From the NCBI GenBank assembly GCA_021793645.1, contig JAJYSJ010000003.1, positions 44,993 through 108,992 of the forward strand: DNA of 64,000 nt. The letters run 5' to 3'. This DNA is from Bacillota bacterium. Its GTDB lineage: Bacteria > Bacillota > Sulfobacillia > JAJZYS01 > JAJYTV01. Position 1 is the stretch's first letter. Every line of letters begins with the position of its first letter. A model generated the notes under the pieces. It made no database searches, was not told the DNA's origin, and worked only from the letters and a program-made list of their open reading frames with translations. Below, piece after piece: positions 17,477 through 57,427 of this stretch. The position numbers and the translations under genes are program-made.

Positions 17477-18685
17477 CTAGTCCGTGCGTCGCGTTACGGT
17501 GCTTCCATCGTGGCGCAGCACGACCCGCTGGCCGGCGACCGCAGTCTCGATCTGCACCGGGGGGCCCCAGAAGGCCTGAATCTCCCCCAGGACCGCTTCG
17601 GCTTCCGGCAGGTCAAGGTCGCGGCCGTCGTGCAGGTGGCGCAGTCGCAGCGTCAGGCCAGGATCCGCCTGCTCGACTTCCACCTGCGGCCGCGATCCGC
17701 TGCTGACCGCAAGCAGGAGCGCCGTACGCACCTCCTCTACGGTCGCCGTCCGCACGGCGCCCTGTCCCGACCGCACGGAAAGACCCAGCCGGTCCACAGC
17801 CCGCTGACTCAAGTGGTTGCGCAGGAACGCAGTGTCGTCCTCGTACGCGCGTACGGCGCAGAGCGTCTGCAAGACCTCGCTCCCAGGCACATCCCCTGGG
17901 GCCCCGCCGTGCTCAGCGGCGATCTCCTCGAGCAGGGCGAGCCCTAAGGCATACGGGTTGAAGCGTCCCGGCGAGAGCGCGACGATCTGGCTATGCAGGG
18001 CGGCGAACTCCAGGTACTCCGCCGGAGGGAGGTCGAGCGCGCGCATGATCCTCAGGTGCCAGAAGGTGGCCCACCCCTCGTTGAGGATCTTCGTGCGCTG
18101 CTGGGCGCGAAAGTACACGCCCTCCTCGCGTACGATCTCGAGGCATTCGCGCTGCCACCCCTCCACCGACCCGCCACGGGCGACGGCACCCAGCACGTCC
18201 TCCGGGCCGTAGGGCGCGCAATACTGTTCGAGGAGGAGCGCGCGATCCAGCGTCTCCTCGAGCAAGCGGGCACCATAGCGCATCCGGTACTCGTGCAGCC
18301 TGCGCCTGTGCAGCGGAAGGCGCCGAGCCGCGCCTTGCGAGAGCCCCTGCATCCAGAGGTTGTGGCGGAAGAAGTCGGCGTGACCGGCTACGTGTGCCCG
18401 GACCGTAACGTCTTCGATCGGCTCGTTGCCCAAAAGCACATAAGCCTGCGGCGGCTCCGTGTTGACGATCACCTCGTAGAAGCGCTGCAACCCCAGATTC
18501 GCCTGGATGCGCATGCGGTGGTAGGCTTTGCCGCGGCTCCAGTGGCCGTAGCGACCAAGAAAGCCATAGGTCGCGAGTACCTGCATCGTCCGCGAAGGCA
18601 CGCGGAAGAACTGGATGCCCTGCGCGTCCAGGCCGAACTCCTGCGCAAGATCCTGGGCGCGCCGGCCGAGCTCATCCCTGCGCAT
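17477..18685 (-). CDS. spoVR: SpoVR family protein
   Basis: RYGHWSRGKAY, YEVIVNTEP, AHVAGHADFFRHN, QRTKILNEGWATFWH motifs; start ATG 18685 overlaps the yhbH 3' end. Confidence 0.92.
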   Translation of the reverse strand: MRRDELGRRAQDLAQEFGLDAQGIQFFRVPSRTMQVLATYGFLGRYGHWSRGKAYHRMRIQANLGLQRFYEVIVNTEPPQAYVLLGNEPIEDVTVRAHVAGHADFFRHNLWMQGLSQGAARRLPLHRRRLHEYRMRYGARLLEETLDRALLLEQYCAPYGPEDVLGAVARGGSVEGWQRECLEIVREEGVYFRAQQRTKILNEGWATFWHLRIMRALDLPPAEYLEFAALHSQIVALSPGRFNPYALGLALLEEIAAEHGGAPGDVPGSEVLQTLCAVRAYEDDTAFLRNHLSQRAVDRLGLSVRSGQGAVRTATVEEVRTALLLAVSSGSRPQVEVEQADPGLTLRLRHLHDGRDLDLPEAEAVLGEIQAFWGPPVQIETAVAGQRVVLRHDGSTVTRRTD

Positions 18686-18905
18686 CGCCGAACAGCGCGT
18701 CGAGGGCGTCCAGCACACCCTGGCGATCGGCGACGCGCAGCGCGCGAAAGTGGGGCGCCTCAACCTCCGAAAGCGCCGTACCGAGCCCCGAGGCGCGGCC
18801 GTGCGGGCGCACCTCGACGTAGGCGAAGAGTTCGCTCGTCTGAAGAATCTCCCGCACGAGGTCGCGAGAAATCCGGTTATCGCTGTCACCCCAATTGTCA
18901 CCATC
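18672..18905 (-). CDS. yhbH: YhbH/YeaH (DUF444) C-terminal segment, separated from its 5' part by the inserted element
   Basis: Encodes DGDNWGDSDNRISRDLVREIL...FAYVEV...DALFGDAQG*, the end of DUF444 proteins. Residues upstream of 18905 in the track ORF come from the element. Confidence 0.88.
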   Translation of the reverse strand, partial: DGDNWGDSDNRISRDLVREILQTSELFAYVEVRPHGRASGLGTALSEVEAPHFRALRVADRQGVLDALDALFGDAQG

Positions 18906-18929
18906 TGGTGAATGATCTTTGGGGTGATT
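18886..18929. repeat. Left attachment junction of the element
   Basis: Host arm ...TCACCCCAATTGTCACCA + TC + T + element arm GGTGAATGATCTTTGGGGTGATT. Confidence 0.85.
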
Positions 18930-18973
18930 GTTTTGGAGATACGCTAACTGGAGAATCGCTTCTCCGTGCGCCA

Positions 18974-19180
18974 TCATTCCCACGCCTCATTTGTGCTCTC
19001 AGGTTCGGTTCTGTCTGCGGGATTTTGATCGGCATAGTCAATCGGTGCGATGCCAAGTTCCTCGTCAGTACAGCGTGCTGTGACGCGGCACGCGATCTCC
19101 ATGTATTGGGCCCATGCCTTCTTGCTGACGTTTCCGTCGCCGATTATGGTCACTCGCACCTTCTTCGCCTCAACGCCCAT
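18974..19180 (-). CDS. Small hypothetical protein at the element end (candidate recombination directionality factor)
   Basis: 68 aa, last ORF before the left junction. Function inferred from position only. Confidence 0.4.
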   Translation of the reverse strand: MGVEAKKVRVTIIGDGNVSKKAWAQYMEIACRVTARCTDEELGIAPIDYADQNPADRTEPESTNEAWE

Positions 19181-19830
19181 GCCTACGCGCGAAGAAGATT
19201 AGTCGTGCCTGTCCACTGCCTCAGCGGCAAGGTCCATATTAATCACCTCAACATTTTGGATTGGATCTCTCTAGCGACCAAGTCGCCGAGTCGCTCAGTC
19301 CTCCGACTGCCTGTAGCGCACCTGCCCGTCACCGATCACACCGAACTGCCGTCCTACTCGACGAGGGCCTGTCGGACAACAAGGCTGTTCGGCGACCCAC
19401 CGCGCAACTTTACCTCGTCGGGCCAACCCGGAGGGGACCAGAAGTGCATGAGCGGTTTGCTCGTCTGCATCGTCAAGAGCGAACGCGAAGAGCGTGTCGC
19501 GGACGTAGACGAAACCCGCGTTGCCGTCAGGCACGCGCGGGTCGAACTGCACTTTCGGATGTCGTCTCAAACTGCCCCGCACCTCTGCTGTGCCTCAGTG
19601 ACCTGTCTGCGCTCAACCTGATTGCCGCCTTGAGGTTCGTGCAGGGCCGAGTGCTGCAGGTGAACGCGGGACAAGAGCACACGCTTAAAACGCGTTCACA
19701 CCTACCGACTGCACCGGAGTTCGCCGGCGCCGGTCTCGAGACGGTCGAACCCGGATAGCTGTCCCTGCAGATAGTCCAGGCTACTAGGCACAGGGGGAGG
19801 GCTCAGGCATTCCCCTGTGCCGTTGAGAGT

Positions 19831-20772
19831 TCAGCTCGCCGCCTCCTTTGGTTGCACGTTGGCCTGACGGCGCTCGATCTCGAGGATGACCTTGTCCGCC
19901 TCCTCCTTGCTCATCGCCGCTGGCCATCCGTAGGTCCTGCCGAGGATATCGTTGGCGATCTCGGTGTCCTTCGCGTAGAGGCTGAGCCCCTGGGCGATCG
20001 CCCACATGCCCTTGCGCTGCTCCGCCATGATTGCCCCGGGCTCCGCCTTGAGGGGCCCCTCCGTGATCCAGAGTTGTTTGCCGTTTGCCTTCGCTTTGTG
20101 GCATGACGTCCGGAGGAGGCCCCTCCGGGTTTCCCGGATCTCGATAGCCAGAGGTACTTGCCGCGGCTCGCGTCGTCTGGCCGGATCTGGCAACCCACTA
20201 TGCGCCCCTCGCGGTCGCGTACCGGGATAAGTAGGCCCGGAGGTCCGCTTGTCAGTCAGGTCGCACCGACCTGATAGAAACCCGGCACTCCTTCTGGCAC
20301 GATGCCGTAAGGGCTCCCGTGGCGTTGTGGGTGCGGTACTGGTTCGCTTCATCTCAGGCAGCGAGAAACCCTGTCGGAGCAGCGCGGCACGGGCGACAGC
20401 CATTCCCGCGCGATCAGCGCTGGGTAGGCTGTTCCGCGCATCGGGGCCCGCCATGCACTCTCGAGGGACAGGCGGCCTCTTAGGTATCGGAGATATTGGA
20501 ATGCCGCCGCGTCCGGTCATGGCGATCGCGTCACGCACGGAGACGTGTTCAATTCGGGCGAGAAAGTCGATGCGTCTCCCTGGGCCCCGCAGGTGAAGCA
20601 CTGCCAGGTCTGGGTTGCGGGAGACGACGAGGTTTGGACGCCCCTGATCATCGTGGAAGGGGCAGGCCCCCACAAGCACCGCGCTGCGGCGCTATAGCTC
20701 TATGCCGTGCCGATGATCTCCTCCACCGATACGAGCGCCTTGGCTTGGGCGACGTTCGTGGGTTTCCTCCTT
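19831..20772 (-). pseudogene. Degraded phage/ICE primase (CHC2 zinc finger plus Toprim-like fragments)
   Basis: GACPFHDD and LWITEGPLKA fragments with frameshifts; start mutated to ACG behind a GGAGG RBS. Confidence 0.6.
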
Positions 20773-20916
20773 AGCCGCCAGACGGCGTGGGATATAGTCG
20801 TGACATCGCCCTTGTCCACCTGGAGCCACGGCGTATAGCATATGAAGGTGAACTGCTCAGGAGGGGCGGACACGCGGATTCGGGTGAAACACACGGCTCA
20901 AATGGAGGTTTGTTTC

Positions 20917-21663
20917 GTGCCGGAGAGTGAACACGCTGACGATCGCTCCCGAAGTGCAGTCATCGGCATCGTCGGAGACTACAGCCCCAGCTATTCGACC
21001 CATCGGATGACGATCGATGCGTTGGGACATGTCCCTTCACCGCTTCCATTCGAGTGGGTGCCGACTGCTACGCTCAAGGAAGATGTCTCCGAGCGGCTCT
21101 CTCGCTACGCGGGACTGTTGATCGCTCCCGGCAGCCCGTATGTCAGCATGGACGGTGCCCTCCGTGCGATCCGGTTCGCTCGTGAGCGCAGGGTGCCGCT
21201 GACTGGAACATGAGGCGGCTTCCAACACGTACTGGTCGAGTAGGCCCGTAACGTTCTTGGTATCAAGGACGCCGATCATGAGGAGTCCAACCCGGCAGCC
21301 CCACAGCTCGCTATAATTGCACTTGCCTGCTCACTTGCCGGACAGGAACATCCGATCAAGCTGGTGCCTGGCTCCAGAGTCCATGCTCTGTACTCCAGCG
21401 AGACGGTCGTCGAACCCTTCTTCTGCAACTACGGCCTCAACCCGGATTATCGGCCCGCTCTGGAAGCGCACGGTCTCGTGTTCAGCGGTGTCGGCGAAGA
21501 GGGAGAAGTCCGGGCTCTTGAGCTTCTCAACCATCCGTTTTTTATCGCCACTCTTTACGTTCCACAAGCCCGTTCCCGGCCCGTGGCACCCCACCCTCTC
21601 ATCAGTGGGTTTGTAGAGGCTGCTCGCCAGTACAACAAAAGATCGATATACCTAGCGGGCTGA
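20917..21663 (+). pseudogene. CTP-synthase-C-terminal-like glutamine amidotransferase with TGA at the catalytic Cys position and a premature TAG
   Basis: One frame: GIVGDY...LIAPGSPY...PLTGT[TGA 21211]GGFQHVLVE[TAG 21241]ARNVLG...FFCNYGLN...HPFFIATLYVPQ; GTG 20917 after GGAGG. Confidence 0.8.
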
Positions 21664-21764
21664 GGTCACAGGATTCCAGGTTGAGAGCATGCTTCTCACC
21701 CGCCACCCTACGGCTGCCAGATTCCCTTTGCCGCCATTCAACTTGTTCCTGGTCAGCGTAGCGC

Positions 21765-21890
21765 GATCATCGTGGAAGGGGCAGGGGCCGACAAGCACCA
21801 CACCGCGCGCTGCACCTCGATCCGTGTTCCGACGATCTCCTCCACCGATACAAGCGCTTTGGCCTGGGCGATGTTCATGGGTTTCCTCCT
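21765..21890 (-). pseudogene. Second primase N-terminal relic, a diverged direct repeat of 20646-20771
   Basis: MNIAQAKALVSVEEIVG... then frameshifted VLVGPCPFHDD; collinear with copy 1. Confidence 0.65.
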
Positions 21891-22233
21891 CTTTCTACGG
21901 AGGCCGGAGTGTCGGCGGCGATGGAGTGGGAGGGAGGCATCGCAATCGCCGCCGCACCCCGTCAGCGTCGACTGGCGTAGGTTCTTGTGCAGCAGCCATC
22001 ACCAGAACTCCTCTTGAAAGATGGCAACGCGCTGCACCCCGGAGAAGGCGTCAAGGGATGGGCCGTGGGCCATGAGAGCACAGCGAGCGCACCCTTGACG
22101 CGGGCGCCGAGGGCGCGGCACCTGTCGCACTGCAGAAAAGGCCCCGGCAAAGCAGAGCGCTTCACCTGGGCGAGTGATGGATTTGTCGGCTTGCCTAATC
22201 GCCATGCGGGACGGGACTGTTCTCTACATCCGT

Positions 22234-22920
22234 CTATTCGTGCGCTGCCCGGACTGCCGTCACCAGGCTGTACCAAGCCATCATCCAAACAAGGGGAATT
22301 CGCAAGGCCCACCCACCGACACTGCCGCTTGAGGGCAGAATTCGGTTCAGTACTACCCCGCTGAGAGTGATCACAAGCCCTGGGATTAGCCAAGCCCAGA
22401 ATCCCGCTCGGAACCGAGCGTTAACAGTCCGAAAAGTCCCCTGAAACCCACTCCTCGCTGTCTCGGCAACTGCCATCCCTGACCACACCGATACGATCAA
22501 CATGGCAACTCCCGCTGCGACACCAGCAAAAGCAGCACCGCCAACGAGTTCAGTGATCGTCAATACAATCCACCCTACAAGCAGGAACGCAAAGAGCTGA
22601 ATCCAAACCATGCCCATCGCGGCGAGCAAGTGCCGTGGCACTGTAGCAACACGCCCATTGTCAAGCGGCAAGGCAACGGCGATCGCAGCCATCGCAATAG
22701 ACAAAGGGTATAGCACAACCTGGCCAACGTCAGACACCACTTGCATCGTGGACCCATTCGCAGACGTTACCGCCAAAGATCCGGCGTAATCAAACCATGC
22801 AATAAGCGGCAAAACAACAACAATGTCCGCGCCAATCAAAACCCAAAAAGTATAAGAACGCATCAGCTTAATTATTGAGTTTTTGTAGGCCGCCAAATTC
22901 CCACCTCTATTTGAAAACAT
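22234..22920 (-). CDS. Hypothetical multi-pass membrane protein
   Basis: 228 aa, about 6 hydrophobic segments; visibly more AT-rich than the flanks. Confidence 0.55.
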   Translation of the reverse strand: MFSNRGGNLAAYKNSIIKLMRSYTFWVLIGADIVVVLPLIAWFDYAGSLAVTSANGSTMQVVSDVGQVVLYPLSIAMAAIAVALPLDNGRVATVPRHLLAAMGMVWIQLFAFLLVGWIVLTITELVGGAAFAGVAAGVAMLIVSVWSGMAVAETARSGFQGTFRTVNARFRAGFWAWLIPGLVITLSGVVLNRILPSSGSVGGWALRIPLVWMMAWYSLVTAVRAAHE

Positions 22921-23353
22921 CGATAAGTTTCGGAGGCGTACGATCTGCTAATCGAATCTGAAATGCGACTGCCAGCATAAACTTACTTTCTAGTTCGACA
23001 TAGACCTGCCAGAGCCCTCCAGGACGGGCGCCTGCAGCCCCTATCGTCCAAGGCGCCAGAACGGAAGCGATGACACCCATCTCCCGGTCTGGAACCAAGT
23101 AGTCACGCAAAACGACGGGATTAAGGTTAGAGTCAAGTTGGTGGCAGAGCATGGCCGACATCTGCATCTTCTGCGGCGAGCACGAGGGGCTTACGGAGTT
23201 CAAGGGGAAGATCGTGTGCCGTTCCTGCGTCGAAACCGTCAGATCGACGTCGAAGAGCTGGTTGACGCCATCTCGATGAGCGGACGCGGATGTGGACACT
23301 TCCAAGTGCATGGCCAGCATCTTCACCGTAAGTGTGCCGTGGGACGTTGCCAT
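22907..23353 (-). CDS. Hypothetical protein
   Basis: 148-aa ORF overlapping the start of the membrane-protein gene; no motif recognised. Confidence 0.35.
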   Translation of the reverse strand: MATSHGTLTVKMLAMHLEVSTSASAHRDGVNQLFDVDLTVSTQERHTIFPLNSVSPSCSPQKMQMSAMLCHQLDSNLNPVVLRDYLVPDREMGVIASVLAPWTIGAAGARPGGLWQVYVELESKFMLAVAFQIRLADRTPPKLIDVFK

Positions 23354-23593
23354 GTGTTGCGATCCGACCGCCCGGGCCCTAGGCTCTAGCCCTCACCGTG
23401 GAGGCGTAAACCGGACCGCCAAATTACCCATCTCGGAAGTACTAGAGCCAGAATTTCCATATTTCGTCGTACGCTGACGATGGTTCAGGCCACGCCCTGA
23501 GTAAACGGTGAGGGCCCGTCAGAACGGGCTTTCTTGGCACCTGCCTGCACTCCCCCTTTGGGCACACTGTTGTCCAGAGGGGGGTGCCCTACG

Positions 23594-25852: not shown

Positions 25853-28476
25853 GCCGTGGGGAGTCTGATCTGACCACAAGGGATGTGCAGGGCAAACAAC
25901 CACCCATGCCGCCGGGCCGTGACCGGCGACCCAAGGTGGGGGTCGTGAGGGCCTTTACCGGCCACTACGAATCAGTACGAGTCCTGCATCGGTTCCTGCA
26001 CCATGCGGGCCTGGAGGTGATCACCAGCCAGGTCAGCACAGCACCCATCATCGAAGCCGGAACTGCGCTGGCCAGTGCCGACTTCTGCTTGCCGCTGCGC
26101 GTCTACGTAGGACACGTCTACACACTGAGCCGTGAGCACCCGGATCTGGACGCCATCCTGGCGCCGAACGTCTGGACAGACAAGGGGGGAGCAGCCACCT
26201 GCTCTAAGTATCGTGACATCGGCGGCGTCGCCATTCGATCACTTGGAGGCATGATCCCGTACCTGCAAGGCCTCCGTGCCCAGGATGGGCATTCCCTTCC
26301 CCGCTTTATCCGTCCAAATATCCAATCCGTCACCTACCGATCCCTGTGCAATGTGGCCTTTGATGTATATGCCGAAATCATCGGGCTGGCACCGTGGTCC
26401 CGCATCGGCGTGTTCCTATCGGAAGACTTGCGCCGTCGATGGACTCCACATCTGGCGCATGTGGAGACGGCTTTCGCCCGCGCTTGGCGCGAGGTGATGG
26501 AACGCCCAGTGGATCGCCTCAGCGCCCTGCTCGCGGATGACGCCCGTCCCCGGGTAGCTGTGGTCGGCCGTCGCTATCTGCTCGATGATCCGGCCCTGAC
26601 CGCAGACCTGAAGCCTTGGTTCCGACGTCGCGGCGCCACGGTCCTGACCGCTTCCGATGTGCCCTGGGAACAACTGGCTGGTCTGTACCGTCAAGCGGAG
26701 GGTTTCTACGACAGTCATCGGGAAGGCCAAGCCTTTATTGACTGGGCCGCGGACAAGGTGGACGGGTTCATAACCTTGGGGTCCTTCGGCTGCCATCCCG
26801 ATGCCTTCCAGGTAGACTATCTGGCGGAGTACGCCCGCGCCAAGGGCAAACCCGCCTGGACCTTCCGATTCGATGAGACGGTAGGCACCACCGGTTTCCA
26901 AACCCGCTTCGAGACACTCTACGGGTTCCTGGAAGGCCAGCGGGACCGGCGCCTGGGTCAGCGACTGTCCAAGGAGGAACATGTGCCACCCCACAATCCA
27001 GTGAAGATACTTCCGGACCGCATGGCGAACGGCAGTGGGCAGCCCCCCTTGCGCCCCCTGTTTGTCTGGCCCTACATGGGCGAGGAGCTTAACCTGTTAC
27101 TCGAAGAGGTCTTTGTCTACCTGGGACTGCAGGATTACGCCTGCCCGCCCAAACCGATCGACGGCACGACCCTGGAATTGGGGGGGCGCCGCTACGCGGA
27201 GACGTGTTCACCGTTTGCCTGTGCGACCGGCAGCCTGATGCAGGGTGTTCAGGCCGCAGTCCGCGAGCTGCGCGACGAGGCCCGAAGGCATGGCCAACCG
27301 CCAGAACCGCGGCGTATCCTCGCACTGATGATCCAGGGCGAAGGCCCCTGTACCTTCGGCTGGTATGCCATCGCCCAGAACCGCCATCTGCCTTCTGATC
27401 TGGCTGCCGATCTGACGGACGGGCATACCCTTGAACTACTGACCATGGGCCTAACCGATCCCGCAGACTTCTTCCGTCAATTGGGCCAGCTCGGCGACAC
27501 CCGGCGCCTAGACCCCGTGGTGCGCTACGTAGAGGCACGGGTGACCGGGGACTGGTCACGACTCCCACGAGCAGCACGGCTGAACCTCCAGTTCAGGTTT
27601 CATCTCGCCCTCCGTTCCCTGCTCGCCCCGGTGTGGGCCAAGCTGGCCGCGGCGGAGGATGTGCGGGCCCGCTCCCTGTTGGTGCGGGCCCACGAACTGG
27701 CACCTGGCAGCACGGCTGCCGCCTACCGGGAGTGCCTGGGACTGCTGCGCGGCGCCCACACCGGGGCGGCGATTCGGCGCACCAGGGATCGCTGTATGGC
27801 CAAGTTGCAAGCCGTCCCCCAGGACCGCACCCCAAAACCGCGCGTGGTTGCCGTCGGTGAGATCTATGTAGCCCTTACCTCATTCGCCAACCGCGGCGTG
27901 ATTGAGAAGCTGTTGGGACGGGATGGGATTGAGGTGGTGGAAGCGACCACCCTCAGCGAGTTCATCCATCGCTCCGTCTGGGAAACGCGGCGGCGCAGTC
28001 TGGCGAACCATCCCTGGATTCGGCCGTTGCGGGACCGATTGGAGGCGCGCAATATCCACTGGCTGAGGCAACGGCCCTACGACCTTCGGGCTCGTCCCTT
28101 CCTGGAGTGGGAGGTCGGCGGCGATGCCATGCCCGGGGTTGGTGCTGCCCGCGCCCTGTTGGAACAGGACTGCGACGGCATCATTCACGTTTATCCGTTC
28201 AAGTGCATGCCCGAGGGTATCGCCAAGGACGCCTACAAGGAACTGAGCGACCTGTATGGCGTTCGCTACCTGGGCCTCTCCTTCGACAAGGAACTGGATA
28301 TCGAACGGGTCAAGACCGAGGTGGCCACCTTCGCCGCCCTGCTGCGGAACCAGGTCTCCAACCGGCAGGGCTGGCTGAACCGCCTCCGGCTGACCCGCCG
28401 GCGCCGGGCCCTGGGGCGCAAGGTGGACCGGCTGTATCAAAGACGAAGGGCGAACACCAGTCGCCCTGAAGCATGA
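25849..28476 (+). CDS. CoA-activase-associated DUF2229 / 2-hydroxyacyl-CoA dehydratase-like fusion protein
   Basis: ADFCLPLRVYVGHV, TCSK, SFGCHPD, FDETVG, ETCSPF, GPCTFG, PFKCMPE, FDKE motifs; ATGA overlap with the activase stop. Confidence 0.78.
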   Translation: MSRGESDLTTRDVQGKQPPMPPGRDRRPKVGVVRAFTGHYESVRVLHRFLHHAGLEVITSQVSTAPIIEAGTALASADFCLPLRVYVGHVYTLSREHPDLDAILAPNVWTDKGGAATCSKYRDIGGVAIRSLGGMIPYLQGLRAQDGHSLPRFIRPNIQSVTYRSLCNVAFDVYAEIIGLAPWSRIGVFLSEDLRRRWTPHLAHVETAFARAWREVMERPVDRLSALLADDARPRVAVVGRRYLLDDPALTADLKPWFRRRGATVLTASDVPWEQLAGLYRQAEGFYDSHREGQAFIDWAADKVDGFITLGSFGCHPDAFQVDYLAEYARAKGKPAWTFRFDETVGTTGFQTRFETLYGFLEGQRDRRLGQRLSKEEHVPPHNPVKILPDRMANGSGQPPLRPLFVWPYMGEELNLLLEEVFVYLGLQDYACPPKPIDGTTLELGGRRYAETCSPFACATGSLMQGVQAAVRELRDEARRHGQPPEPRRILALMIQGEGPCTFGWYAIAQNRHLPSDLAADLTDGHTLELLTMGLTDPADFFRQLGQLGDTRRLDPVVRYVEARVTGDWSRLPRAARLNLQFRFHLALRSLLAPVWAKLAAAEDVRARSLLVRAHELAPGSTAAAYRECLGLLRGAHTGAAIRRTRDRCMAKLQAVPQDRTPKPRVVAVGEIYVALTSFANRGVIEKLLGRDGIEVVEATTLSEFIHRSVWETRRRSLANHPWIRPLRDRLEARNIHWLRQRPYDLRARPFLEWEVGGDAMPGVGAARALLEQDCDGIIHVYPFKCMPEGIAKDAYKELSDLYGVRYLGLSFDKELDIERVKTEVATFAALLRNQVSNRQGWLNRLRLTRRRRALGRKVDRLYQRRRANTSRPEA

Positions 28477-28487
28477 GAGGAGGTCCC

Positions 28488-28739
28488 TCACCTATCGCTC
28501 AGCGGTAGAACTGCTTCAGCGCGTCCACTTCGAGGTTTACGGTCGCGGGCTTCACGCTTGCCGCACGCCGGCGGTGCCATTCTGCAGGGTCGATCGGGGT
28601 CACGGGGTCCCATCCATCTCCTGCGAGATCCACCGCCTGCACGGGTGACCGCCTGCATGCAGACGGTCACCGTTCGCAGACTGCGGCCTGCGGCGTGCAA
28701 GTGATCGCGGAAGAGCGACAGAGCCTCGTCGTTCGTCAC
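28488..28739 (-). pseudogene. Tyrosine-integrase N-terminal (SAM-like) relic, copy A
   Basis: FRDHLHAAGRSLRTV... then frameshifted VKPATVNLEVDALKQFYR*; no catalytic domain follows. Confidence 0.6.
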
Positions 28740-28824
28740 AGTGTCACCTTCTCACCAATAGCGACAGGAGGCGGACACGCTGCCTCCTCGCGTGGTGGAT
28801 TTGCTTGATGACAGTTTAGTGCCT

Positions 28825-28853
28825 CACCCGATTTCGGTCGCCCACATATGTTA
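28825..28853 (+). promoter_or_regulatory. Candidate sigma-K-type promoter of the peptidoglycan-binding gene
   Basis: CACC-N16-CATATGTTA fits the B. subtilis sigma-K consensus mACm-N16-CATAnnnTA. Confidence 0.5.
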
Positions 28854-28882
28854 TGTCGACGACCGGATAGGAGGGGAACCGT

Positions 28883-29704
28883 TTGGCACTTTTCGAAACG
28901 ACCTTTCCTCCTTACGTCCCCTTCGGCAGCCGACTACTCAGGCTGCAGACGCCGAACCTGCGTGGCACTGACGTTGCGGTGCTTCAGGGGATCTACAACC
29001 TGATGCTGCAGGTGATGAACCCCCCGCAGGGACCGATGGGCAGCCCGATCACACTAGACGGCATCTTCGGACCACAGACTCGCCAGGCAGTGCTCAACAT
29101 CCAAAGCTACTTCGGCCTCTCGGTCGATGGCATCGCTGGGCCACAAACCTACTTTGTCTTTGGGCAAGGCGTAGGACCCAACACCACCTACGGCGGGCCA
29201 GTGTACGGTAGCCGACAGCTTATGCAGGGAACATCCGGGGGTGACGTCAAGATCCTGCAGAATCGCCTGAACTGCTTCCGATATGCTGGCTTGATTGGCC
29301 AGCCGGCAACCGGCTTCTTCGACGCTGCCACCGCCCAGGCTGTCCTGGCCTTCAAGCAAGACGCCGCCTCGAATGGCGACACCGGCTTCCCGAACAACGC
29401 CATCGCAGGCTTCGGGTTCTACGATGCATCGTGGATCTACACCTTCGCCGGAGGCCGCGGGATCTTCACTGGCCGCAACGGGTTCGACGTCGTCTTCATT
29501 CAGGTGATGATGGCGGAGTTCGGTCGCCTCTACAAAGGCCCAATCGACGGTTACTATGGCGCGGCTACTACAGCGGCAGTAAGGGCGTTCCAAGCCAGCT
29601 CGGGGATTATCGTTGACGGTGTCGTCGGCCCGCAGACGTTCTATCAGATCGGATTGCGCAACGACATCTTCGCGCCGATCCCCATGCCGATTTTTACCTT
29701 TTGA
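28883..29704 (+). CDS. Peptidoglycan-binding domain protein (three PG_binding_1-like repeats, no signal peptide)
   Basis: G(T/F)DV..LQ...DG.(F/Y)G..T..AV..(I/F)Q-type repeats; TTG start after AGGAGGGG. Confidence 0.85.
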   Translation: MALFETTFPPYVPFGSRLLRLQTPNLRGTDVAVLQGIYNLMLQVMNPPQGPMGSPITLDGIFGPQTRQAVLNIQSYFGLSVDGIAGPQTYFVFGQGVGPNTTYGGPVYGSRQLMQGTSGGDVKILQNRLNCFRYAGLIGQPATGFFDAATAQAVLAFKQDAASNGDTGFPNNAIAGFGFYDASWIYTFAGGRGIFTGRNGFDVVFIQVMMAEFGRLYKGPIDGYYGAATTAAVRAFQASSGIIVDGVVGPQTFYQIGLRNDIFAPIPMPIFTF

Positions 29705-29750
29705 CTCCCACGCTCCGTCTCACAGTTGGGTTTTCCCCCGCCTAGTCTTT

Positions 29751-29775
29751 GGCCGCACTTCAGGTGCGGCCTTTC
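29751..29775 (+). terminator. Putative intrinsic terminator after the PG-binding gene
   Basis: GGCCGCAC-TTCAG-GTGCGGCC followed by TTTCC. Confidence 0.5.
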
Positions 29776-29866
29776 CACATTCATCTGCAGGATCGATCTT
29801 GCCGCAGCGACGTAACTGCGGCTTAACCGAGAGAATGTCGAGGCCACGATGTAGCGCCGAGGCTTA

Positions 29867-30686
29867 GTGGGATACTACGCGGATCAGGAGTGGTGTCTTT
29901 CTCTTCGTGACCTTCGCAACCCACTCAGTGAACCCACCAAGGGCTTGACGCGCACTGTGGCTTTGGACCCAAGCGTGCTGTCCTCCTTCGTCAAGGGGCG
30001 CCAAAAAGCAATGAGCACCCCGGTCAGTGAAGATTCTGCGCCAGGATCTCATGGAACAGAAAAAGATGTGGGGCAACTCCGCAACTCGACCCGGCATGGT
30101 ACGGCTGTTGGTACACGGACGAGATGTGGCTATGAGTGACCCGCAAACGCGTTCCAGTATTTTGAACCAGAACCTGAGCGAGCAACGCCTTATGTGGGCG
30201 GATTCCGCCACCAGCCGCAAGATGACCATATTCGCCGTGGACGGGCGTAAGGCCGCGATCAAGAATCCCGTGACAGCCAAACCGATACTGCAGCAGAATT
30301 TGAACGAACAGCGGGTTGCATTGGCTTCCCCGGACGTCGCGACTGGAATGTCGGACGTCTCAATAAGGTTGACGCAGCATGCGCTGACCAACCCCGAGCA
30401 GGCCAAGACCTTGCGCCATACCACGATGTCCGTTATGGAGGGAATCTCCAAGGACCCGAAGGAACGGCGGCGCATACTGGCACTTATGTCGCTTAATATG
30501 GAGGATCCCAGCATGAAGGCAAAGCTACTCTCCATGATGAAGTCGATGATGGCGAGCAGTTCCTCGGGCGCGTCGGGAGGGTCGGGCGGCAGTGCCGCCT
30601 CCAAACCCAGGCGCTCACCACTCGTCCAGCTCCGGTTCCACTTCAGGCCAGACAGGCCGGTAGAGCCTGAAGCGGGTGGGATTTAG
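29867..30686 (+). pseudogene. Helical 42-aa repeat protein, GerD-like, probably frameshifted near 30025
   Basis: Repeats IL(R/N/Q)Q(D/N)L.EQ...G(R)..A...P; the repeat register continues upstream in another frame (VKGRQKAMSTP); Met-rich end EDPSMKAKLLSMMKSMM. GerD resemblance is from memory only. Confidence 0.4.
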
Positions 30687-31405
30687 TCGGCGACCTCCGA
30701 TCCATCCAGGGGTGGGTCGATCCCCTCCACAAGTTGCAAAAGTTTCGGCAAGGTGGCCTCGGCTACCATTTCGCCTTCTGCGACACAACGCTGGATCTGC
30801 CGGAGGTCCAGCAGGCTGCATCCACCAACTGCAGGCTGGATGAGAAGGTCCGCCTGTACCCGTACGTCCGCCTCGAGCTTGTCCATCATCACGCTAAAGC
30901 TTCGACGGATTGTCCCGACCAGGCTCCGTGTACTCTTCGTCGGCTCTGCCACGAAACGAGATGCCGACGCGCGCACGAGATCGGTCGCGGTGATGAGGAC
31001 GCGTAGAGGCAGGTCCTCGAGCGAGCCTCAACGGGTGACGACACGCAAGAAACGGAGGAAGCGCCGCGGAATGCCGACTGACGCGCCAGCCGATGATCTC
31101 CTGCCAGCGAATAGAACGGCTTGGCGTTCGATATCTCCAAGGTCGTCGCCGAGCACACAGAGAGCCGCGACCAGCGCACCTACGCTCGATCCCGCGACGA
31201 TGTCGAACTCGACGCCATGACGCCTGAGGACCTAGAGTACCCCAAGGTGCGCAGCGCACCGCACGCCGCCACCACTCAGCGCGAGCCCGAACACGCTTCG
31301 CATCACCTGACCGGTTTGCTATGCCATCCAGCCTAAATCATGCTCTTCCTTCACTGAGGTCGTACTTGCCCTTCAGGCAGATGCCGGGAGCGTGCGGTCG
31401 GACCC

Positions 31406-31620
31406 GCTAACACCAGCCCCTTCCCCATGTCCGGCGGTAGAACGGCCGCAGGGCGTCCACCTCGAGGTTCATGGTCGCAGGCTTTGCGTTCGTCGCACGC
31501 AGCCGCCGCCACTCGGCGAGGTCGATCGGGGTGACGGAGGTCCAGCCGTCGTTGGTCCATGGCCTTAAGGGCACGGGTGATCGCACAGGTTAAATCGCCT
31601 CGCACTCCAGAGGTGGAGGG
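31406..31620 (-). pseudogene. Tyrosine-integrase N-terminal relic, copy B
   Basis: Encodes WTSVTPIDLAEWRRLRATNAKPATMNLEVDALRPFYR; 31434-31547 is collinear with 28502-28615. Confidence 0.6.
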
Positions 31621-31688
31621 CCCGGTCTTGTGCAGTCTGCAGGAGGCGGAGGGGCCGTTCTCGTACAATCAGGTGGAGGTGGCAACGA

Positions 31689-33032
31689 CTGCGCGCAGGC
31701 CTTTATATACGGGTATCGACTGAAGAGCAGGCGCGGGAGGGGTTCTCCGTCGCCGCGCAGCGCGAACGCTTGGAGGCTTATGCGCTCTCGCAGGGATGGC
31801 AGGTCGCCAACGTCTACGCGGACGAGGGTATGTCGGGCAAGAATCTCGAGCGCGAGGCCGTACAGCGTCTAATCGGCGATGTCCACGCCGCCCTCCTAGA
31901 TGTGGTGCTCGTGTGGCGTTTGGACCGCCTCTCACGGCGCCAGCGCGACGTCCTGCACCTGATCGAGGATGTCTTCACTCCGCGTGGCGTGGGCTTTCGC
32001 AGCGCGACAGAGAGCTTTGATACGACAAGCCCCGCCGGCATGGCCATGGTTGGCATGTTGGCCGTGTTCGCGCAGCTTGAACGGGCCACGATCATTGAGC
32101 GTAGCACGATGGGCTATCGCCAGCGCCTCTCGCAAGGCAAATGGGCCGGGGCGGCGCCTTACGGCTATCGCTACGGCCAGGGTGGCGTCCTGGAGCCAGA
32201 CGCCGACACAGTAGGATGGGTGCGCCTCATCTATCGGCAGGCGATCGACGGGGCATCACTGGATCGCATCGTGGCATGGCTCACCGCGGAAGGAGCACCG
32301 CCTCCCTTTGGCCGACGCTACTGGCATCCGAGCACGGTGAACATCATCCTTCATAATCGTGCTTACCTCGGTGAGCGCCGCACTCGAGATGGCTGGATGA
32401 AGTCCGGGCATACGGCACTCCTGGATGAGCAGACGTGGCTCGACGCTCAGGACGCCATCGAGGGCAGGCGCAAGGGGCCCGGTCGGCCACGGCGCGGTGA
32501 AGTGTCACCCTACCTCTTGACCGGCGTTCTCTTTTGCGGCGAGTGCGGAAGCAGGATGGTTGGCCACAAGAGCTCGAATGGTTTGCGGTACTACATCTGT
32601 GATCGGATCAAGCGCAGGGGACATCGCTGCGGTCCTGGCTATGTGCGTGTCGAGCGACTTGACGAGGCGGTAGCGGCGGCGTTCATTCGGGCGGTACACT
32701 CCCAGGACACGCCCGCGCCGCGCCGGCGCCGCGACGAGTTCGCGGCCATCGACGCCAAGATCGCTCGCTTAGTCGCCGCCATCGAAGACGGCACGTTGCC
32801 ACACGATGTCGTGCGCGACCGCCTCGATCAGCTTCAGCGGCAGAGGGCGCAGGCTCTGCGTGAGCGGGCACCCTCTGCTACCACGGCGGAGCAGCGACGC
32901 ACAATGGCTGCTGGTCTGCCGAGGGTCTGGGCGGCGGCGACGCATGAGGAGCGACGGGAGATCCTTCAGGCGCTAATCGAGCGCATCGACGTTGACGCCA
33001 GCGGAAATCCGCTTTTGAGGCTGCATGGGTGA
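31689..33032 (+). CDS. Large serine recombinase (SpoIVCA/CisA-like), 447 aa if it starts at CTG 31689
   Basis: Frame is open upstream of the track ORF: LRAGLYIRVSTEEQAREGFS (catalytic Ser 31716-31718); D-RLSR, APYGY recombinase domain, zinc ribbon LFCGECG...YYIC...HRC. GGAGGT RBS 8 nt before the CTG. Confidence 0.93.
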   Translation: MRAGLYIRVSTEEQAREGFSVAAQRERLEAYALSQGWQVANVYADEGMSGKNLEREAVQRLIGDVHAALLDVVLVWRLDRLSRRQRDVLHLIEDVFTPRGVGFRSATESFDTTSPAGMAMVGMLAVFAQLERATIIERSTMGYRQRLSQGKWAGAAPYGYRYGQGGVLEPDADTVGWVRLIYRQAIDGASLDRIVAWLTAEGAPPPFGRRYWHPSTVNIILHNRAYLGERRTRDGWMKSGHTALLDEQTWLDAQDAIEGRRKGPGRPRRGEVSPYLLTGVLFCGECGSRMVGHKSSNGLRYYICDRIKRRGHRCGPGYVRVERLDEAVAAAFIRAVHSQDTPAPRRRRDEFAAIDAKIARLVAAIEDGTLPHDVVRDRLDQLQRQRAQALRERAPSATTAEQRRTMAAGLPRVWAAATHEERREILQALIERIDVDASGNPLLRLHG

Positions 33033-33075
33033 ATCACCCCAAAGAGCATTTACCCTCCGTAAAGTGCAATACCAG
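33032..33075. repeat. Right attachment junction of the element
   Basis: Element arm AATCACCCCAAAGAGCATTTACC + C + TC + host arm CGTAAAGTGCAATACCAG. Confidence 0.85.
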
Positions 33076-33894
33076 CACCTGCCTTCCCATCGTCTTCGCC
33101 GCGCGCGCAAGTTCGAGCGCAACCCGGTAGGCCGAAGACACCTTTGTGCCACCGGACTCGACGCGGCGGAAAAACTCCTCCTCCTCCACGCGCCGCGCCT
33201 CGGTGTGGTGAACGACATAGGCGATTTCGATCGGCCCGTACGTGCCGCGCACAAAGTCGACAAGCCAATGGAAGAAGCTGCGGCAGAGCAGCTTCTTTTC
33301 GTCGCCCATACTGCCAGAGACGTCGCGCAGGGCGACGATCAGGCAATCTGGAGCCGGGTTCTGGTCCGGAGCGCTCGTGTGAAAGCGCAGGTCCTCCTCG
33401 CGCAGCCGCACGGGAGAACTGCTCAGCCGCGCACGGCGAATCGCTGCCAGCATGCTCTGACGGCGGTGCAGGTTCGGCCACGGCCCAATGCGGCGCAGCC
33501 GTTCGACATCGGCTGGCCTGCTGCCGAAAAGCGGCGCCCCCGCCAGCTCCGGGAGCCGCCAACGGCGGTGCAGTTCCTCGGAAACTCGCTCGTGCAGCCA
33601 CTCGAGTTCCTCTTCGCCCGGCTGGTCGCCAGCACGTCCTTCCGCGTGGTCGCCGGTGGCCGCTCCATCCGGACGATGCACTACCTCGACCTGAACCTCG
33701 TCCTGCGCAAAGCGCAGCCTGCGCTCGCGCAGCACGGGATAGGAGAGGCGGAGGCCGCGTTCGCCTCCGCCGATCAGCGCTTCCTCTACGACGAGTTCCT
33801 TGAGGTGGTTGGCTAGCGCCTCACGCAGCAACTCCTGATGACGAGCTCTGTCCCGCTCCGCGCTGCGCTCAATGTCGAGGCCCCATGGATCCAC
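33056..33894 (-). CDS. yhbH: YhbH/YeaH (DUF444) N-terminal segment (279 codons), interrupted
   Basis: DRARHQELLREAL...LVVEEALI, EDLRF, RDVSGSMGDEKK, IAYVVHHTEARRVEEEEFFRRVESGGTKVSSAY, VLHFT. As integrated it ends EGKCSLG* inside the att arm. Confidence 0.9.
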
Positions 33895-33931: not shown

Positions 33932-33959
33932 AGCCTATGCTCGGCGAGGCGCCAAGGTC
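33932..33959 (-). promoter_or_regulatory. Candidate mother-cell (sigma-K/E-type) promoter of yhbH-spoVR
   Basis: Minus strand gACC-N16-CATAGGCT, about 25 nt upstream of the GGAGG RBS. Confidence 0.35.
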
Positions 33960-37968: not shown

Positions 37969-38448
37969 GTGAGCAGCACGACGGTCGACCAGTTCGTAGA
38001 GCGCTACGGGCCGGACGTCTACCGCGCAGCACGCCTCTACACAGGTGATGCCGCACTAGCCGAGGACGTGGCGCAGGAGGTCTTGATCGCGGCCGTACAG
38101 ACGTTGCACCAGATGCGGGAACCATCCCGATGGCTGGCGAGAGTCACCCATAACAAGGCTCTGAACGCATTGCGCGCTCAGGGACGCCGGCGCGAGGTGC
38201 CGCTGAATGTGGAGCACGACGCACCAGTCGACGACCCGGCTGACCGCTACGAAGAGAGTGATGTTGTCCAAGCCGTGCAGCAACTGCCGCTGCCCTTGCG
38301 CGAGGCTGTTGTCCTACGCTACTTCGAAGGCTGGACGCCACAGCAGATCGGACTCCTGCTCCGTCTTCCGACCGGGACGGTGCGAAGCCGCCTGCACCGT
38401 GCTCGAAACACTCTGCGGTCGATACTTACGGGAGGTGACAAGGAGTGA
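37969..38448 (+). CDS. ECF RNA polymerase sigma factor
   Basis: AEDVAQE region 2, WLARV; region 4 REAVVLRYFEG...GTVRSRLHRAR. Confidence 0.9.
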   Translation: MSSTTVDQFVERYGPDVYRAARLYTGDAALAEDVAQEVLIAAVQTLHQMREPSRWLARVTHNKALNALRAQGRRREVPLNVEHDAPVDDPADRYEESDVVQAVQQLPLPLREAVVLRYFEGWTPQQIGLLLRLPTGTVRSRLHRARNTLRSILTGGDKE

Positions 38449-57410: not shown

Positions 57411-57427
57411 CGCACCATCCTCCGAAC

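What the first reader, a model, noticed from the sequence alone, without database searches (positions are those of the whole stretch)
18672..33894. Sporulation gene yhbH is split by a 14,152-bp serine-recombinase element; precise excision rebuilds the gene
Seen: the DUF444 5' part (33894 to 33056) and 3' part (18903 to 18672) lie 14 kb apart on the same strand, with a large serine recombinase ending at the right junction. Both junctions carry TC (18904-18905 and 33056-33057). Joining there gives ...TTG CAC TTT ACG GAT GGT GAC AAT TGG... = LHFTDGDNW, a 1,071-nt, 356-aa ORF with the family's HF(S/T)DGDN motif restored. Its stop overlaps the spoVR start, so excision would also reconnect spoVR to the upstream promoter. 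Known: skin in sigK, SPbeta in spsM and elements in spoVFB, spoVR and gerE are excised by serine recombinases in the mother cell. Inference: this is a developmentally excised element in a target, yhbH, that I do not recall being described.
Basis: partly seen in the sequence, partly recalled or inferred. Interest (0 to 1): 0.95.

Follow-up and report, generated by a model that had tools for sequence, protein, structure and literature searches.

The report
Serine-recombinase element splitting sporulation gene yhbH
A 14-kb mobile element carrying its own serine recombinase sits inside the sporulation-associated gene yhbH of an uncultured hot-spring bacterium, and cutting it out exactly would rebuild the gene; this is a new example of a known kind of element, and its excision during sporulation is inferred, not shown.

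Summary
A DUF444/yhbH gene is split into a 5' part (33894-33058, minus strand) and a 3' part (18903-18672) by a 14,152-bp insert bounded by TC at 18904-18905 and 33056-33057. Joining there gives a 356-aa DUF444 protein that aligns without gaps to intact relatives (88% and 81% identical) in the same gene order.

The insert has the marks of a large-serine-recombinase element:
- a 447-aa recombinase ending 24 nt from the junction;
- 23-nt terminal inverted repeats, 91% complementary;
- a 2-bp crossover;
- a GGGGTG motif at +16 in every element arm and at +12 in the host arm.

The same codon of yhbH is split by related recombinases (68-84% identical to one another) with different cargo in at least four other lineages. 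The host carries spoIIA/sigF, spoVA, ytfJ, spoVR and prkA. yhbH is preceded by a sigmaK/E-like motif, AC-N17-CATAGGCT, invariant in 9 of 9 lineages.

Mother-cell-specific excision is inferred by analogy. One lineage has lost most of its recombinase, and no excised allele was found.

The novelty claim is too strong. A preprint cites Abe et al. 2013 as listing yhbH among interrupted sporulation genes. Verdict: a new member of a known kind, of moderate interest.

The parts
18906..33057 (.). The intervening element, 14,152 bp counting one copy of the TC crossover dinucleotide. G+C is 55-66%, mostly a little below the flanks.
   Evidence: Synteny with uninterrupted relatives L010 and L005.
33058..33894 (-). 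yhbH (DUF444) 5' part, codons 1-279, GTG start. In the integrated state it reads on into the element for 7 codons (EGKCSLG) and stops at 33034.
18672..18903 (-). yhbH 3' part, codons 280 (third base) to 356 plus the stop codon.
   Evidence: dN/dS is 0.09 against the split YF allele.
33932..33958 (-). Conserved promoter-like motif AC-N17-CATAGGCT in the 63-nt gap between panC and yhbH. It resembles the sigmaK/sigmaE -10 element CATA---T.
   Evidence: Invariant in 9 of 9 lineages, while the rest of the spacer varies. CATAGGCT occurs once in the window. The consensus itself is from memory.
33032..33057 (.). Junction next to the yhbH 5' part: crossover TC (33056-33057) and the element-side arm (P'), an inverted repeat at 33032-33054. 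The arm overlaps the recombinase stop codon.
18904..18929 (.). Junction next to the yhbH 3' part: crossover TC (18904-18905) and the element-side arm (P), an inverted repeat at 18907-18929. TCACCATCTGGTGA (18898-18911) is a perfect palindrome around the TC.
31689..33032 (+). Large serine recombinase, 447 aa, with Resolvase, Recombinase and Zn_ribbon_recom domains. The catalytic Ser lies in YIRVSTEEQ. The probable start is CTG at 31689, 7 nt after GGAGGTG. No ATG, GTG or TTG lies in frame upstream of the catalytic serine.
18974..19180 (-). Small acidic ORF of 68 aa, or 61 aa from the GTG at 19159. It is the candidate recombination directionality factor and the only gene besides the recombinase shared with the YF element.
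   Evidence: Differences in the invariant core YMEIACRVTARCTDEELG are all synonymous (the one Ile/Val change lies in the second copy of the motif, YMEVACRV, in L014).
17477..18685 (-). spoVR, 402 aa. Its start overlaps the end of yhbH by 14 nt.
23534..28476 (+). Cargo: two intact, translationally coupled genes. The first (23534-25852) is a BcrAD/BadFG-type CoA-enzyme activase ATPase. The second (25849-28476) carries DUF2229 and an HGD-D-like domain; its ATG overlaps the first gene's stop as ATGA.
28883..29704 (+). Cargo: protein with three PG_binding_1 repeats, resembling the wall-binding domain of endolysins.
19831..21890 (-). Decayed remains: two partial copies, 86-89% identical and 1,119 nt apart, of a gene N-terminus. 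Both carry a CPFHDD motif, which I recall as primase CHC2 zinc-finger-like. Copy 1 has a mutated start and a frame break.
   Evidence: There was no Pfam, PHROGs or PDB hit, so the primase label is tentative.
28499..28642 (-). Fragment resembling the N-terminal domain of a tyrosine integrase. A second copy lies at 31407-31586, forming a 117-nt repeat at 77% identity.
   Evidence: The resemblance is judged by eye and was not tested against a profile.
22234..22920 (-). Cargo: 228-aa hydrophobic protein of unknown function, in the lowest-G+C stretch of the element.
10219..12078 (-). prkA, 619 aa. It is the third member of the PrkA-YhbH-SpoVR set and lies 5.4 kb downstream of spoVR, not next to yhbH.
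   Evidence: The same layout occurs in L014.

Best explanation
This is a gene-intervening element of the skin/vrin/gin kind. It is a decayed mobile element that a large serine recombinase (LSR) inserted at a fixed site inside yhbH, namely the GA of the Asp codon in the conserved HFTDGDN motif.

Proposed mechanism. The 447-aa recombinase binds the two hybrid sites. It cuts at the 2-bp GA/TC core and rejoins them, releasing a 14,152-bp circle. This restores a 356-aa yhbH whose end overlaps the start of spoVR. As with other LSRs, excision should need a directionality factor. The conserved small acidic ORF at 18974-19180 is the best candidate. I think excision most likely takes place in the terminally differentiating mother cell during sporulation. 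That would restore a yhbH-spoVR unit driven by the conserved sigmaK/E-like promoter, while the spore keeps the element.

Shown: the split, the att-site anatomy, the in-silico rebuild, the intact recombinase under purifying selection, recurrence at the same codon in several lineages, and the host's sporulation gene set.

Inferred: that excision occurs, its timing and cell type, and the role of the small ORF.
For: - Exact rebuild, with gap-free alignment to intact relatives in the same gene order ytfJ-SNF2-panC-yhbH-spoVR.
- LSR domain set with the catalytic serine. PDB matches to the TP901-1 integrase catalytic domain (1e-33) and to SPbeta SprA.
- Terminal inverted repeats of 23 nt, 91% complementary, one base from each TC.
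- GGGGTG lies at +16 in all 8 element-side arms and at +12 in 5 of the 6 host B' arms examined (L005 has a variant). This 4-bp shift is of the kind I recall for LSR attP versus attB half-sites.
- The same codon is split next to a convergent recombinase of exactly 447 aa in YF (L001-L003/L006, L014), DBS (L011/L016/L017) and L100, and at a 3' junction in L101. L099 has the same split beside only a recombinase remnant. Cargo differs in each.
- Recombinase dN/dS is 0.12-0.20.
- Both yhbH halves are intact in every lineage seen. dN/dS between two split alleles is 0.125.
- The small ORF is conserved in 4 elements, and differences within its invariant core are synonymous. It lies next to the junction in the window and in L101.
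- The host has spoIIAA/AB-sigF, spoVAC/AD, ytfJ and prkA.
- AC-N17-CATAGGCT upstream of yhbH is invariant in 9 of 9 lineages.
- In B. subtilis, yhbH belongs to the mother-cell programme (PMC517825).
- Precedents exist: skin, SPbeta, vfbin, vrin, gin and yin.
Against: - No direct sign of excision. The exact rebuilt proteins of the window strain and of the YF strain are absent from the 15-billion-protein collection. No attP junction was found in viral contigs.
- In L099 only residues 342-422 of the recombinase remain, so a fixed split is tolerated there.
- Recombinase similarities do not follow the host tree. DBS and L100 share 83.7% recombinase identity but 45.5% YhbH identity. Insertions may therefore be recent, and the low dN/dS of the halves may only reflect their history before insertion.
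- Close relatives live without the element.
- The recombinase lacks a canonical start codon in the window and in YF.
- No convincing sporulation-type promoter was found before the recombinase or the small ORF. The degenerate motif seen there is not enriched.
- The structure model of the small ORF was uninformative, with pLDDT 51.6.
Confidence: 0.5

Rival explanations
1. Passive insertion. An integrative element, a decayed prophage or mobilisable island, used the conserved yhbH sequence as its landing site and simply inactivated the gene. yhbH is dispensable in this organism, spoVR is expressed from element promoters, and no regulated excision takes place.
For: - L099 has lost most of its recombinase while keeping the split.
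- Element and host phylogenies disagree, so insertions may be recent.
- The recombinase start codon is CTG.
- The element is full of pseudogene fragments.
- An ORF that overlaps the stop of the small ORF reads in frame across the junction into the yhbH 3' part, which in turn overlaps spoVR. spoVR could therefore be expressed without excision.
- No excised allele was found.
Against: - The recombinase keeps exactly 447 aa in four lineages, with dN/dS 0.12-0.20. This includes the N-terminal codons that lie upstream of the first canonical start codon.
- Both att arms are conserved in every lineage.
- Neither yhbH half carries a stop or frameshift in any of the lineages seen.
- A second conserved small gene accompanies the recombinase.
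Confidence: 0.3
2. An active or recently active mobile element that excises on its own cues, such as DNA damage or transfer, rather than during sporulation. The choice of yhbH only reflects a well conserved DNA target.
For: - Horizontal spread between divergent hosts.
- The closest cultured relatives of the recombinase are phage integrases at 31-38% identity.
- The target is the most conserved motif of the family, so it makes a dependable landing site.
Against: - No phage structural, replication or conjugation genes are intact. There are no PHROGs hits apart from an endolysin-type wall-binding domain.
- No repressor or SOS-type module was seen.
- No circular form was found in viral contigs.
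- The element carries metabolic cargo rather than mobility functions.
Confidence: 0.17
3. Assembly chimera: the insert was joined to yhbH by metagenome mis-assembly.
For: The source is a metagenome-assembled genome.
Against: - The 5' junction is identical in an independent assembly.
- Both junctions carry matched inverted repeats.
- The same architecture appears in several unrelated MAGs and read assemblies.
Confidence: 0.02

Closest known systems
skin element in sigK (B. subtilis SpoIVCA/Skr; C. difficile CD1231/CD1234)
   Same: A serine recombinase gene lies next to the junction inside a mother-cell sporulation gene. Precise excision rebuilds the ORF. The element is a decayed mobile element, and excision needs a small directionality factor.
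   Different: The target is yhbH, not sigK. The recombinase is only distantly related. The cargo is metabolic (a CoA-activase operon) rather than phage-like. Nothing has been shown experimentally. The host is an uncultured bacterium with 65% G+C.
vrin in spoVR (Geobacillus thermoglucosidasius) and vfbin in spoVFB (B. weihenstephanensis), Abe et al. 2013, as described in PMC4191935
   Same: These are intervening elements in sigmaE-class mother-cell genes that are excised during sporulation. vrin affects the same functional module, SpoVR.
   Different: Here spoVR is intact and the gene immediately upstream of it is split. vrin and vfbin carry phage-related genes.
gin in gerE (B. cereus ATCC 10987; GirC and GirX), PMC5595907
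   Same: A non-prophage-like intervening element with variable cargo between strains. Its LSR works with a small accessory factor.
   Different: gin carries three recombinases and recombines within a 9-bp consensus. This element has one recombinase and a 2-bp core.
SPbeta in spsM (SprA/SprB) and SPbeta-like phages in kamA and spoVK
   Same: An LSR with a short crossover core. The att site lies at or near the end of the integrase gene. The PDB sequence search matches SprA.
   Different: SPbeta is an active phage of about 134 kb. This element is 14 kb and has no intact phage genes.
yin in yabG (C. botulinum V73), PMC10747680
   Same: A recently described new target gene. The recombinase lies next to the 5' fragment of the split gene, and a small RDF was predicted.
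   Different: yin is unique to one strain and prophage-like. The yhbH elements occur in several lineages with different cargo.
yhbH interruptions catalogued by Abe et al. 2013, known to me only through Kohm et al., bioRxiv 10.1101/2021.11.22.469490
   Same: The same target gene is named as a site of phage- or transposon-related insertion in spore-formers.
   Different: The species, the position within the gene and the type of recombinase in that catalogue are unknown to me. I found no experimental or detailed description in the searchable literature.

Membership tests
Sporulation gene-intervening element (skin/SPbeta/vfbin/vrin/gin/yin class) | Inserted within the coding region of a sporulation-associated gene of an endospore-former | tested here: met
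   A DUF444/yhbH gene is split. The window also carries spoIIAA-AB-sigF, spoVAC/AD, ytfJ, spoVR and prkA.
Sporulation gene-intervening element (skin/SPbeta/vfbin/vrin/gin/yin class) | Encodes a site-specific (serine) recombinase, and precise recombination between the two junctions restores the ORF | tested here: met
   Tested in silico only. The recombinase is at 31689-33032. The rebuilt 356-aa ORF aligns without gaps to intact relatives.
Sporulation gene-intervening element (skin/SPbeta/vfbin/vrin/gin/yin class) | Excision actually occurs and is specific to sporulation and the mother cell | not testable with these tools
   No reads or cultures are available. Exact look-ups of the rebuilt proteins were negative.
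Sporulation gene-intervening element (skin/SPbeta/vfbin/vrin/gin/yin class) | The target gene is expressed in the mother cell | tested here: inconclusive
   A sigmaK/E-like motif, AC-N17-CATAGGCT, is conserved in 9 of 9 lineages. B. subtilis yhbH belongs to the mother-cell programme. There are no expression data for this organism.
Sporulation gene-intervening element (skin/SPbeta/vfbin/vrin/gin/yin class) | A recombination directionality factor is encoded in the element | tested here: inconclusive
   A conserved small acidic ORF co-occurs with the recombinase in the window and YF elements; homologs lie in two further contigs (L101, L102) where no recombinase is in view. It has no homology to known RDFs, and the structure model is poor.
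Large serine recombinase (phage-integrase type) | N-terminal resolvase catalytic domain with the serine nucleophile, followed by a Recombinase domain and a zinc-ribbon domain | tested here: met
   Pfam PF00239, PF07508 and PF13408. The motif YIRVSTEEQ is present.
Large serine recombinase (phage-integrase type) | A 2-bp crossover core, with element-side arms forming an imperfect inverted repeat and host-side arms of different geometry | tested here: met
   Only GA/TC is shared by the two junctions. The inverted repeat is 23 nt. GGGGTG lies at +16 in the P and P' arms and at +12 in the B' arm.
Prophage (intact or defective) | Phage structural, packaging, lysis or lysogeny genes | tested here: not met
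   PHROGs and Pfam gave only an endolysin-type wall-binding domain. A primase-like motif and integrase-like fragments were recognised by eye only.
Anti-phage defence island | Known defence-system proteins | tested here: not met
   No PADLOC hit for 10 element ORFs.
DUF444 / YhbH family (the target gene) | Pfam PF04285 match, with the conserved SGSMG and HF(S/T)DGDN motifs | tested here: met
   E=1.7e-49. Invariant columns are listed.

The most novel reading that the evidence does not exclude
A family of yhbH-specific LSR elements acts as a developmental switch for the yhbH-spoVR unit in a deep, uncultured, thermophilic lineage of high-G+C Bacillota. It has spread horizontally among hosts whose YhbH proteins are only 45-56% identical. 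It would use a new family of small directionality factors (core YMEIACRVTARCTDEELG) and a conserved near-cognate CTG/TTG start that keeps recombinase levels low.
Probability: 0.35. Interest if true: 0.55.

Novelty: new member of a known kind. Interest (0 to 1): 0.42.

Why it matters
It takes the 'split sporulation gene rebuilt by excision' phenomenon beyond cultured Bacilli and Clostridia, into uncultured hot-spring Bacillota with high G+C. The same codon of yhbH is targeted repeatedly by related recombinases carrying unrelated, largely metabolic cargo.

It also supplies several natural attL/attR pairs, with the inferred attB and attP, for a compact 447-aa LSR that is probably thermostable, together with a candidate directionality factor. 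These could be tested directly in vitro or in B. subtilis, and they are the raw material that genome-engineering work looks for.

The PrkA-YhbH-SpoVR module is poorly understood. A natural on/off switch in yhbH would be a useful handle on its function.

Tried and rejected
- Metagenome scan with the recombinase alignment. It returned 80 loci, all 50% identical or less (full-length matches 25-34%). None lay next to a DUF444 fragment or carried the small ORF. It was uninformative about how far the family spreads.
- Viral-contig scan. The nearest integrases to the recombinase were 36-38% identical. Cultured phages reached 31-36%. An attP junction pattern gave no matches.
- PADLOC on the cargo gave no hits.
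- Rfam and tRNA scans of the window found nothing, so this is not a tRNA-targeting island.
- The sigma-70 promoter scan of the element found 1 site against 3 expected, and terminators were at the chance level.
- A degenerate CRTAGSC motif appeared to link the yhbH promoter with the regions upstream of the small ORF and the recombinase. It is not enriched over shuffles, so I dropped it as evidence.
- AlphaFold model of the small ORF. Mean pLDDT was 51.6, so I ran no fold search.
- Exact look-ups of the rebuilt YhbH of the window strain and of the YF strain found neither in the collection.
- The primase label for 19831-20679 has no Pfam, PHROGs or PDB support. I keep it only as a motif-level remark.
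- The ATGA at 18675 as the spoVR start is rejected. It opens a 68-aa ORF in another frame, and the real start is the ATG at 18685.
- TTG at 31770 as the recombinase start is rejected. It would remove the catalytic serine, and the upstream codons are under purifying selection.
- Co-divergence of element and host, which would have dated the insertion, is rejected. The recombinase identities are incongruent with the host identities, and dS is near saturation.
- Abe et al. 2013 could not be read.

Full report
OBSERVATION

On the minus strand, an ORF starting at GTG 33894 encodes the first 279 codons of a DUF444/YhbH protein. It then runs 7 codons into foreign sequence and stops. The last 76 codons lie 14 kb away, at 18903-18672. 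Both junctions carry TC on the plus strand, which is GA in the gene sense, at 18904-18905 and 33056-33057. The interval is 14,152 bp.

Joining at that dinucleotide gives a 1,071-nt, 356-aa ORF reading ...VLVLHFTDGDNWGDSDN.... It matches Pfam DUF444 at E=1.7e-49. In an alignment with intact relatives there is no gap at the join, and HFTDGDNWG is conserved.

There is one small correction. spoVR (17477-18685, 402 aa, Pfam SpoVR and SpoVR_C) starts at the ATG at 18685 and overlaps the end of yhbH by 14 nt. The ATGA at 18675 opens only a short ORF in another frame. The same overlap is present in the uninterrupted relative L010.

IS IT REAL?

The 5' junction is 100% identical over 2,861 nt in an independent ENA assembly.

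Two related MAGs have an uninterrupted yhbH in exactly the same gene order: ytfJ, SNF2 helicase, panC, yhbH, spoVR, rhomboid-like gene, aldo-keto reductase. They are L010, with 88% YhbH identity, and L005, with 81%. Their DNA at the site reads CACTT(T/C)ACCGACGG(T/C)GACAACTGGGG. The window differs from them by a clean 14-kb insertion.

WHAT THE INSERT IS

The gene ending 24 nt from the right junction encodes a large serine recombinase with Resolvase, Recombinase and Zn_ribbon_recom domains. The ORF listing begins it at TTG 31770. However, the catalytic-serine motif (LRAGLYIRVSTEEQ) lies upstream in the same frame, with no ATG, GTG or TTG before it.

The homologous position is TTG in two related elements and CTG in the window and in YF. 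In each case it lies 7 nt downstream of GGAGGTG or a similar sequence. The N-terminal codons differ from the YF homologue almost only at synonymous sites. The protein is therefore 447 aa from CTG 31689. All four homologues are exactly 447 aa, with dN/dS 0.12-0.20 among the three compared. By sequence, the closest solved structures are the TP901-1 integrase catalytic domain and SPbeta SprA.

The element ends are 23-nt inverted repeats, 91% complementary (18907-18929 and 33032-33054). Each lies one base from the TC. The two junctions share only the 2-bp core.

Reading outward from the core, all eight element-side arms from five or more lineages carry GGGGTG at +16. The host arm on the 3' side carries GGGG(T/C)GA at +12 in 5 of the 6 examples examined; the intact relative L005 has a variant there. 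This motif is the coding sequence for (N)WGD. A distal motif sitting a few base pairs closer in attB than in attP is what I recall for LSR half-sites (Rutherford et al. 2013, from memory).

The cargo consists of:
- an intact, translationally coupled pair encoding a BcrAD/BadFG CoA-enzyme activase and a DUF2229/HGD-D protein;
- a protein with three peptidoglycan-binding repeats, resembling the wall-binding domain of endolysins;
- a hydrophobic 228-aa protein;
- debris, namely two partial copies of an N-terminus with a CPFHDD motif and two fragments resembling a tyrosine-integrase N-terminal domain.

There are no phage structural genes, conjugation genes or known defence genes.

A FAMILY OF ELEMENTS AT THE SAME CODON

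The homologue search for the rebuilt protein returned several proteins that break off right after HFT(D/E). Their contexts are as follows.

- YF lineage, 84% YhbH identity. The 5' fragment is followed by a convergent 447-aa recombinase, then PucR, aldehyde dehydrogenases, aminotransferases and arginase (L001-L003/L006). In the same MAG (L014) the 3' fragment sits directly upstream of spoVR. It is preceded by PhD/PIN, HSP70/GrpE/DnaJ-like genes, a TPR protein and a sigma54 activator. The two contigs do not overlap, so this element is longer than 19.7 kb.
- DBS lineage, 56% YhbH identity. The same 5' junction and recombinase.
- L100, about 50% YhbH identity. The same.
- L101. A 3' junction 84% identical in DNA to the window's left end.
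- L099. The same junction, but only residues 342-422 of the recombinase remain.

Recombinase identities do not track host divergence. DBS and L100 share 83.7% recombinase identity against 45.5% for YhbH. The window and YF share 77.6% against 84.2%. The elements have therefore moved horizontally, and the insertions cannot be dated.

CANDIDATE DIRECTIONALITY FACTOR

Apart from the recombinase, the only sequence shared by the window and YF elements is a small ORF. In the window it is 18974-19180 on the minus strand (68 aa, or 61 aa from GTG 19159, pI about 4.5). In YF it is L014 2997-3227.

The large database holds two more homologues, L101 and L102. The core YMEIACRVTARCTDEELG is invariant apart from one Ile/Val change in L014, and the remaining codon differences within it are third-position and synonymous, so this is a real coding gene. 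In the window and in L101 it lies directly beside the junction.

Its role as an RDF is an inference from size, conservation and co-occurrence. It has no homology to known RDFs, and the AlphaFold model is unreliable.

HOST AND TARGET BIOLOGY

The relatives are all labelled 'Bacillota bacterium', and their isolate names suggest hot-spring metagenome bins. The window has 65% G+C. It carries spoIIAA, spoIIAB, sigF, spoVAC, spoVAD, a YtfJ-family gene, spoVR and prkA. The organism therefore has the core endospore toolkit.

prkA lies 5.4 kb downstream of spoVR, not next to yhbH as in B. subtilis. panC and an SNF2 helicase lie upstream.

In the 63-nt gap between panC and yhbH, the motif AC-N17-CATAGGCT is invariant in nine lineages while the surrounding spacer varies. 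It resembles the B. subtilis sigmaK (AC-16/17-CATA---TA) and sigmaE -10 consensus, which I quote from memory. B. subtilis yhbH belongs to the mother-cell programme and lies near a SpoIIID-bound region (PMC517825).

MECHANISM AND ITS RIVALS

Best reading, about 0.5. The recombinase, with an accessory factor, recombines the two hybrid sites at GA/TC. This rebuilds yhbH and the yhbH-spoVR overlap and releases a 14,152-bp circle. By analogy with skin, SPbeta, vfbin, vrin, gin and yin, this would happen in the mother cell.

Main rival, about 0.3. This is a tolerated, inactivating insertion. In its favour:
- L099 has lost its recombinase.
- The elements are horizontally mobile.
- No excised allele was found.
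- In the integrated state, an ORF whose ATG overlaps the stop of the small ORF reads in frame across the junction into the yhbH 3' part, which overlaps spoVR. spoVR might therefore be expressed from element promoters without excision.

Against the rival:
- The recombinase length and sequence are conserved.
- Both att arms are conserved.
- No yhbH half carries a lesion.
- A conserved accessory gene accompanies the recombinase.

A third possibility, about 0.17, is excision on non-developmental cues. An assembly artefact is excluded.

NOVELTY

Searches for yhbH or DUF444 together with intervening elements or serine recombinases found no dedicated paper. The targets named in the papers I read are:
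- experimentally studied: sigK, spsM, spoVFB, spoVR, gerE and yabG;
- reported as prophage integration loci: kamA and spoVK.

However, Kohm et al. (bioRxiv 10.1101/2021.11.22.469490) state, citing Abe et al. [quoted passage not shown] I could not read the primary paper. yhbH is therefore not an unreported target.

What is new here:
- the lineage, which is uncultured, thermophilic and high in G+C;
- a defined family of LSRs with their att sites at one codon;
- non-phage cargo;
- the candidate RDF;
- the CTG/TTG start.

I rate this as a new member of a known kind, with interest about 0.4.

Noticed in passing
window 46764-52214 (+): A 1,816-aa protein with AMP-binding, enoyl-CoA hydratase and zinc-type reductase domains. 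It matches PDB 6eqo over its full length (2,018 bits). I recall 6eqo as the trifunctional propionyl-CoA synthase of the 3-hydroxypropionate bi-cycle, which would be unexpected in a Bacillota MAG.
   Followed up: partly
window 31689 (recombinase start); L001, L016 and L100 equivalents: The recombinase has no ATG, GTG or TTG upstream of its catalytic serine. The homologous start position is CTG in the window and YF and TTG in DBS and L100, always behind a strong Shine-Dalgarno sequence. A conserved weak start may keep recombinase levels low.
   Followed up: partly
window 18672-18974 (-); L101 1418-1525: An ORF beginning ATGATG overlaps the stop of the small ORF and reads across the junction in frame into the yhbH 3' part. 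It is 100 aa and is annotated as a protein in the NCBI record (P0156). The same arrangement occurs in L101. It might allow translational coupling from the small ORF through the 3' fragment to spoVR while the element is integrated.
   Followed up: partly
L099 4196-4429: In one related lineage the yhbH split and the element-side arm are intact, but only residues 342-422 of the recombinase remain. The element there is probably immobilised.
   Followed up: partly
window 58991-62917 (-): spoIIAA, spoIIAB and sigF, followed by spoVAC and spoVAD. ScpB and a DUF2953 protein lie nearby at 56859-58012. This is the canonical endospore-former gene order.
   Followed up: partly
window 20646-20771 versus 21765-21890, and 28502-28618 versus 31434-31550: Internal direct repeats within the element. 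One is a module of about 125 nt repeated 1,119 nt apart at 86-89% identity. The other is a 117-nt repeat at 77% identity that covers the integrase-like N-terminal fragments. One copy of the latter lies just upstream of the recombinase gene.
   Followed up: partly
window 31640-31688; L001, L016 and L100 equivalents: A short motif, (T)CGTA(C/G), is conserved 10-15 nt upstream of the recombinase Shine-Dalgarno sequence in all four elements. In the window it reads CGTACAAT, one mismatch from the sigmaE -10 consensus CATACAAT as I recall it. Its significance is unclear.
   Followed up: partly
window 37969-39038 (+) and 42629-44478 (-): An ECF-type sigma factor followed by an unannotated 197-aa ORF, and a LytTR/GAF-histidine-kinase two-component pair. 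Both lie upstream of the yhbH locus, and the two-component pair is also syntenic in the YF lineage.
   Followed up: no
L007, L008 and L009 (relatives with 57-60% YhbH identity): In this sister clade yhbH is intact, but spoVR is not found downstream of it in L008 and L009 (L007's contig ends just after yhbH, so it says nothing). The yhbH-spoVR overlap is therefore specific to the window's subclade.
   Followed up: no
P0014 / L100 (GCA_054637715.1): A 4.5-kb contig carrying the split yhbH and the recombinase is filed under a MAG labelled 'Acidobacteriaceae bacterium'. This is probably a binning error, given its Bacillota-type neighbours elsewhere.
   Followed up: no
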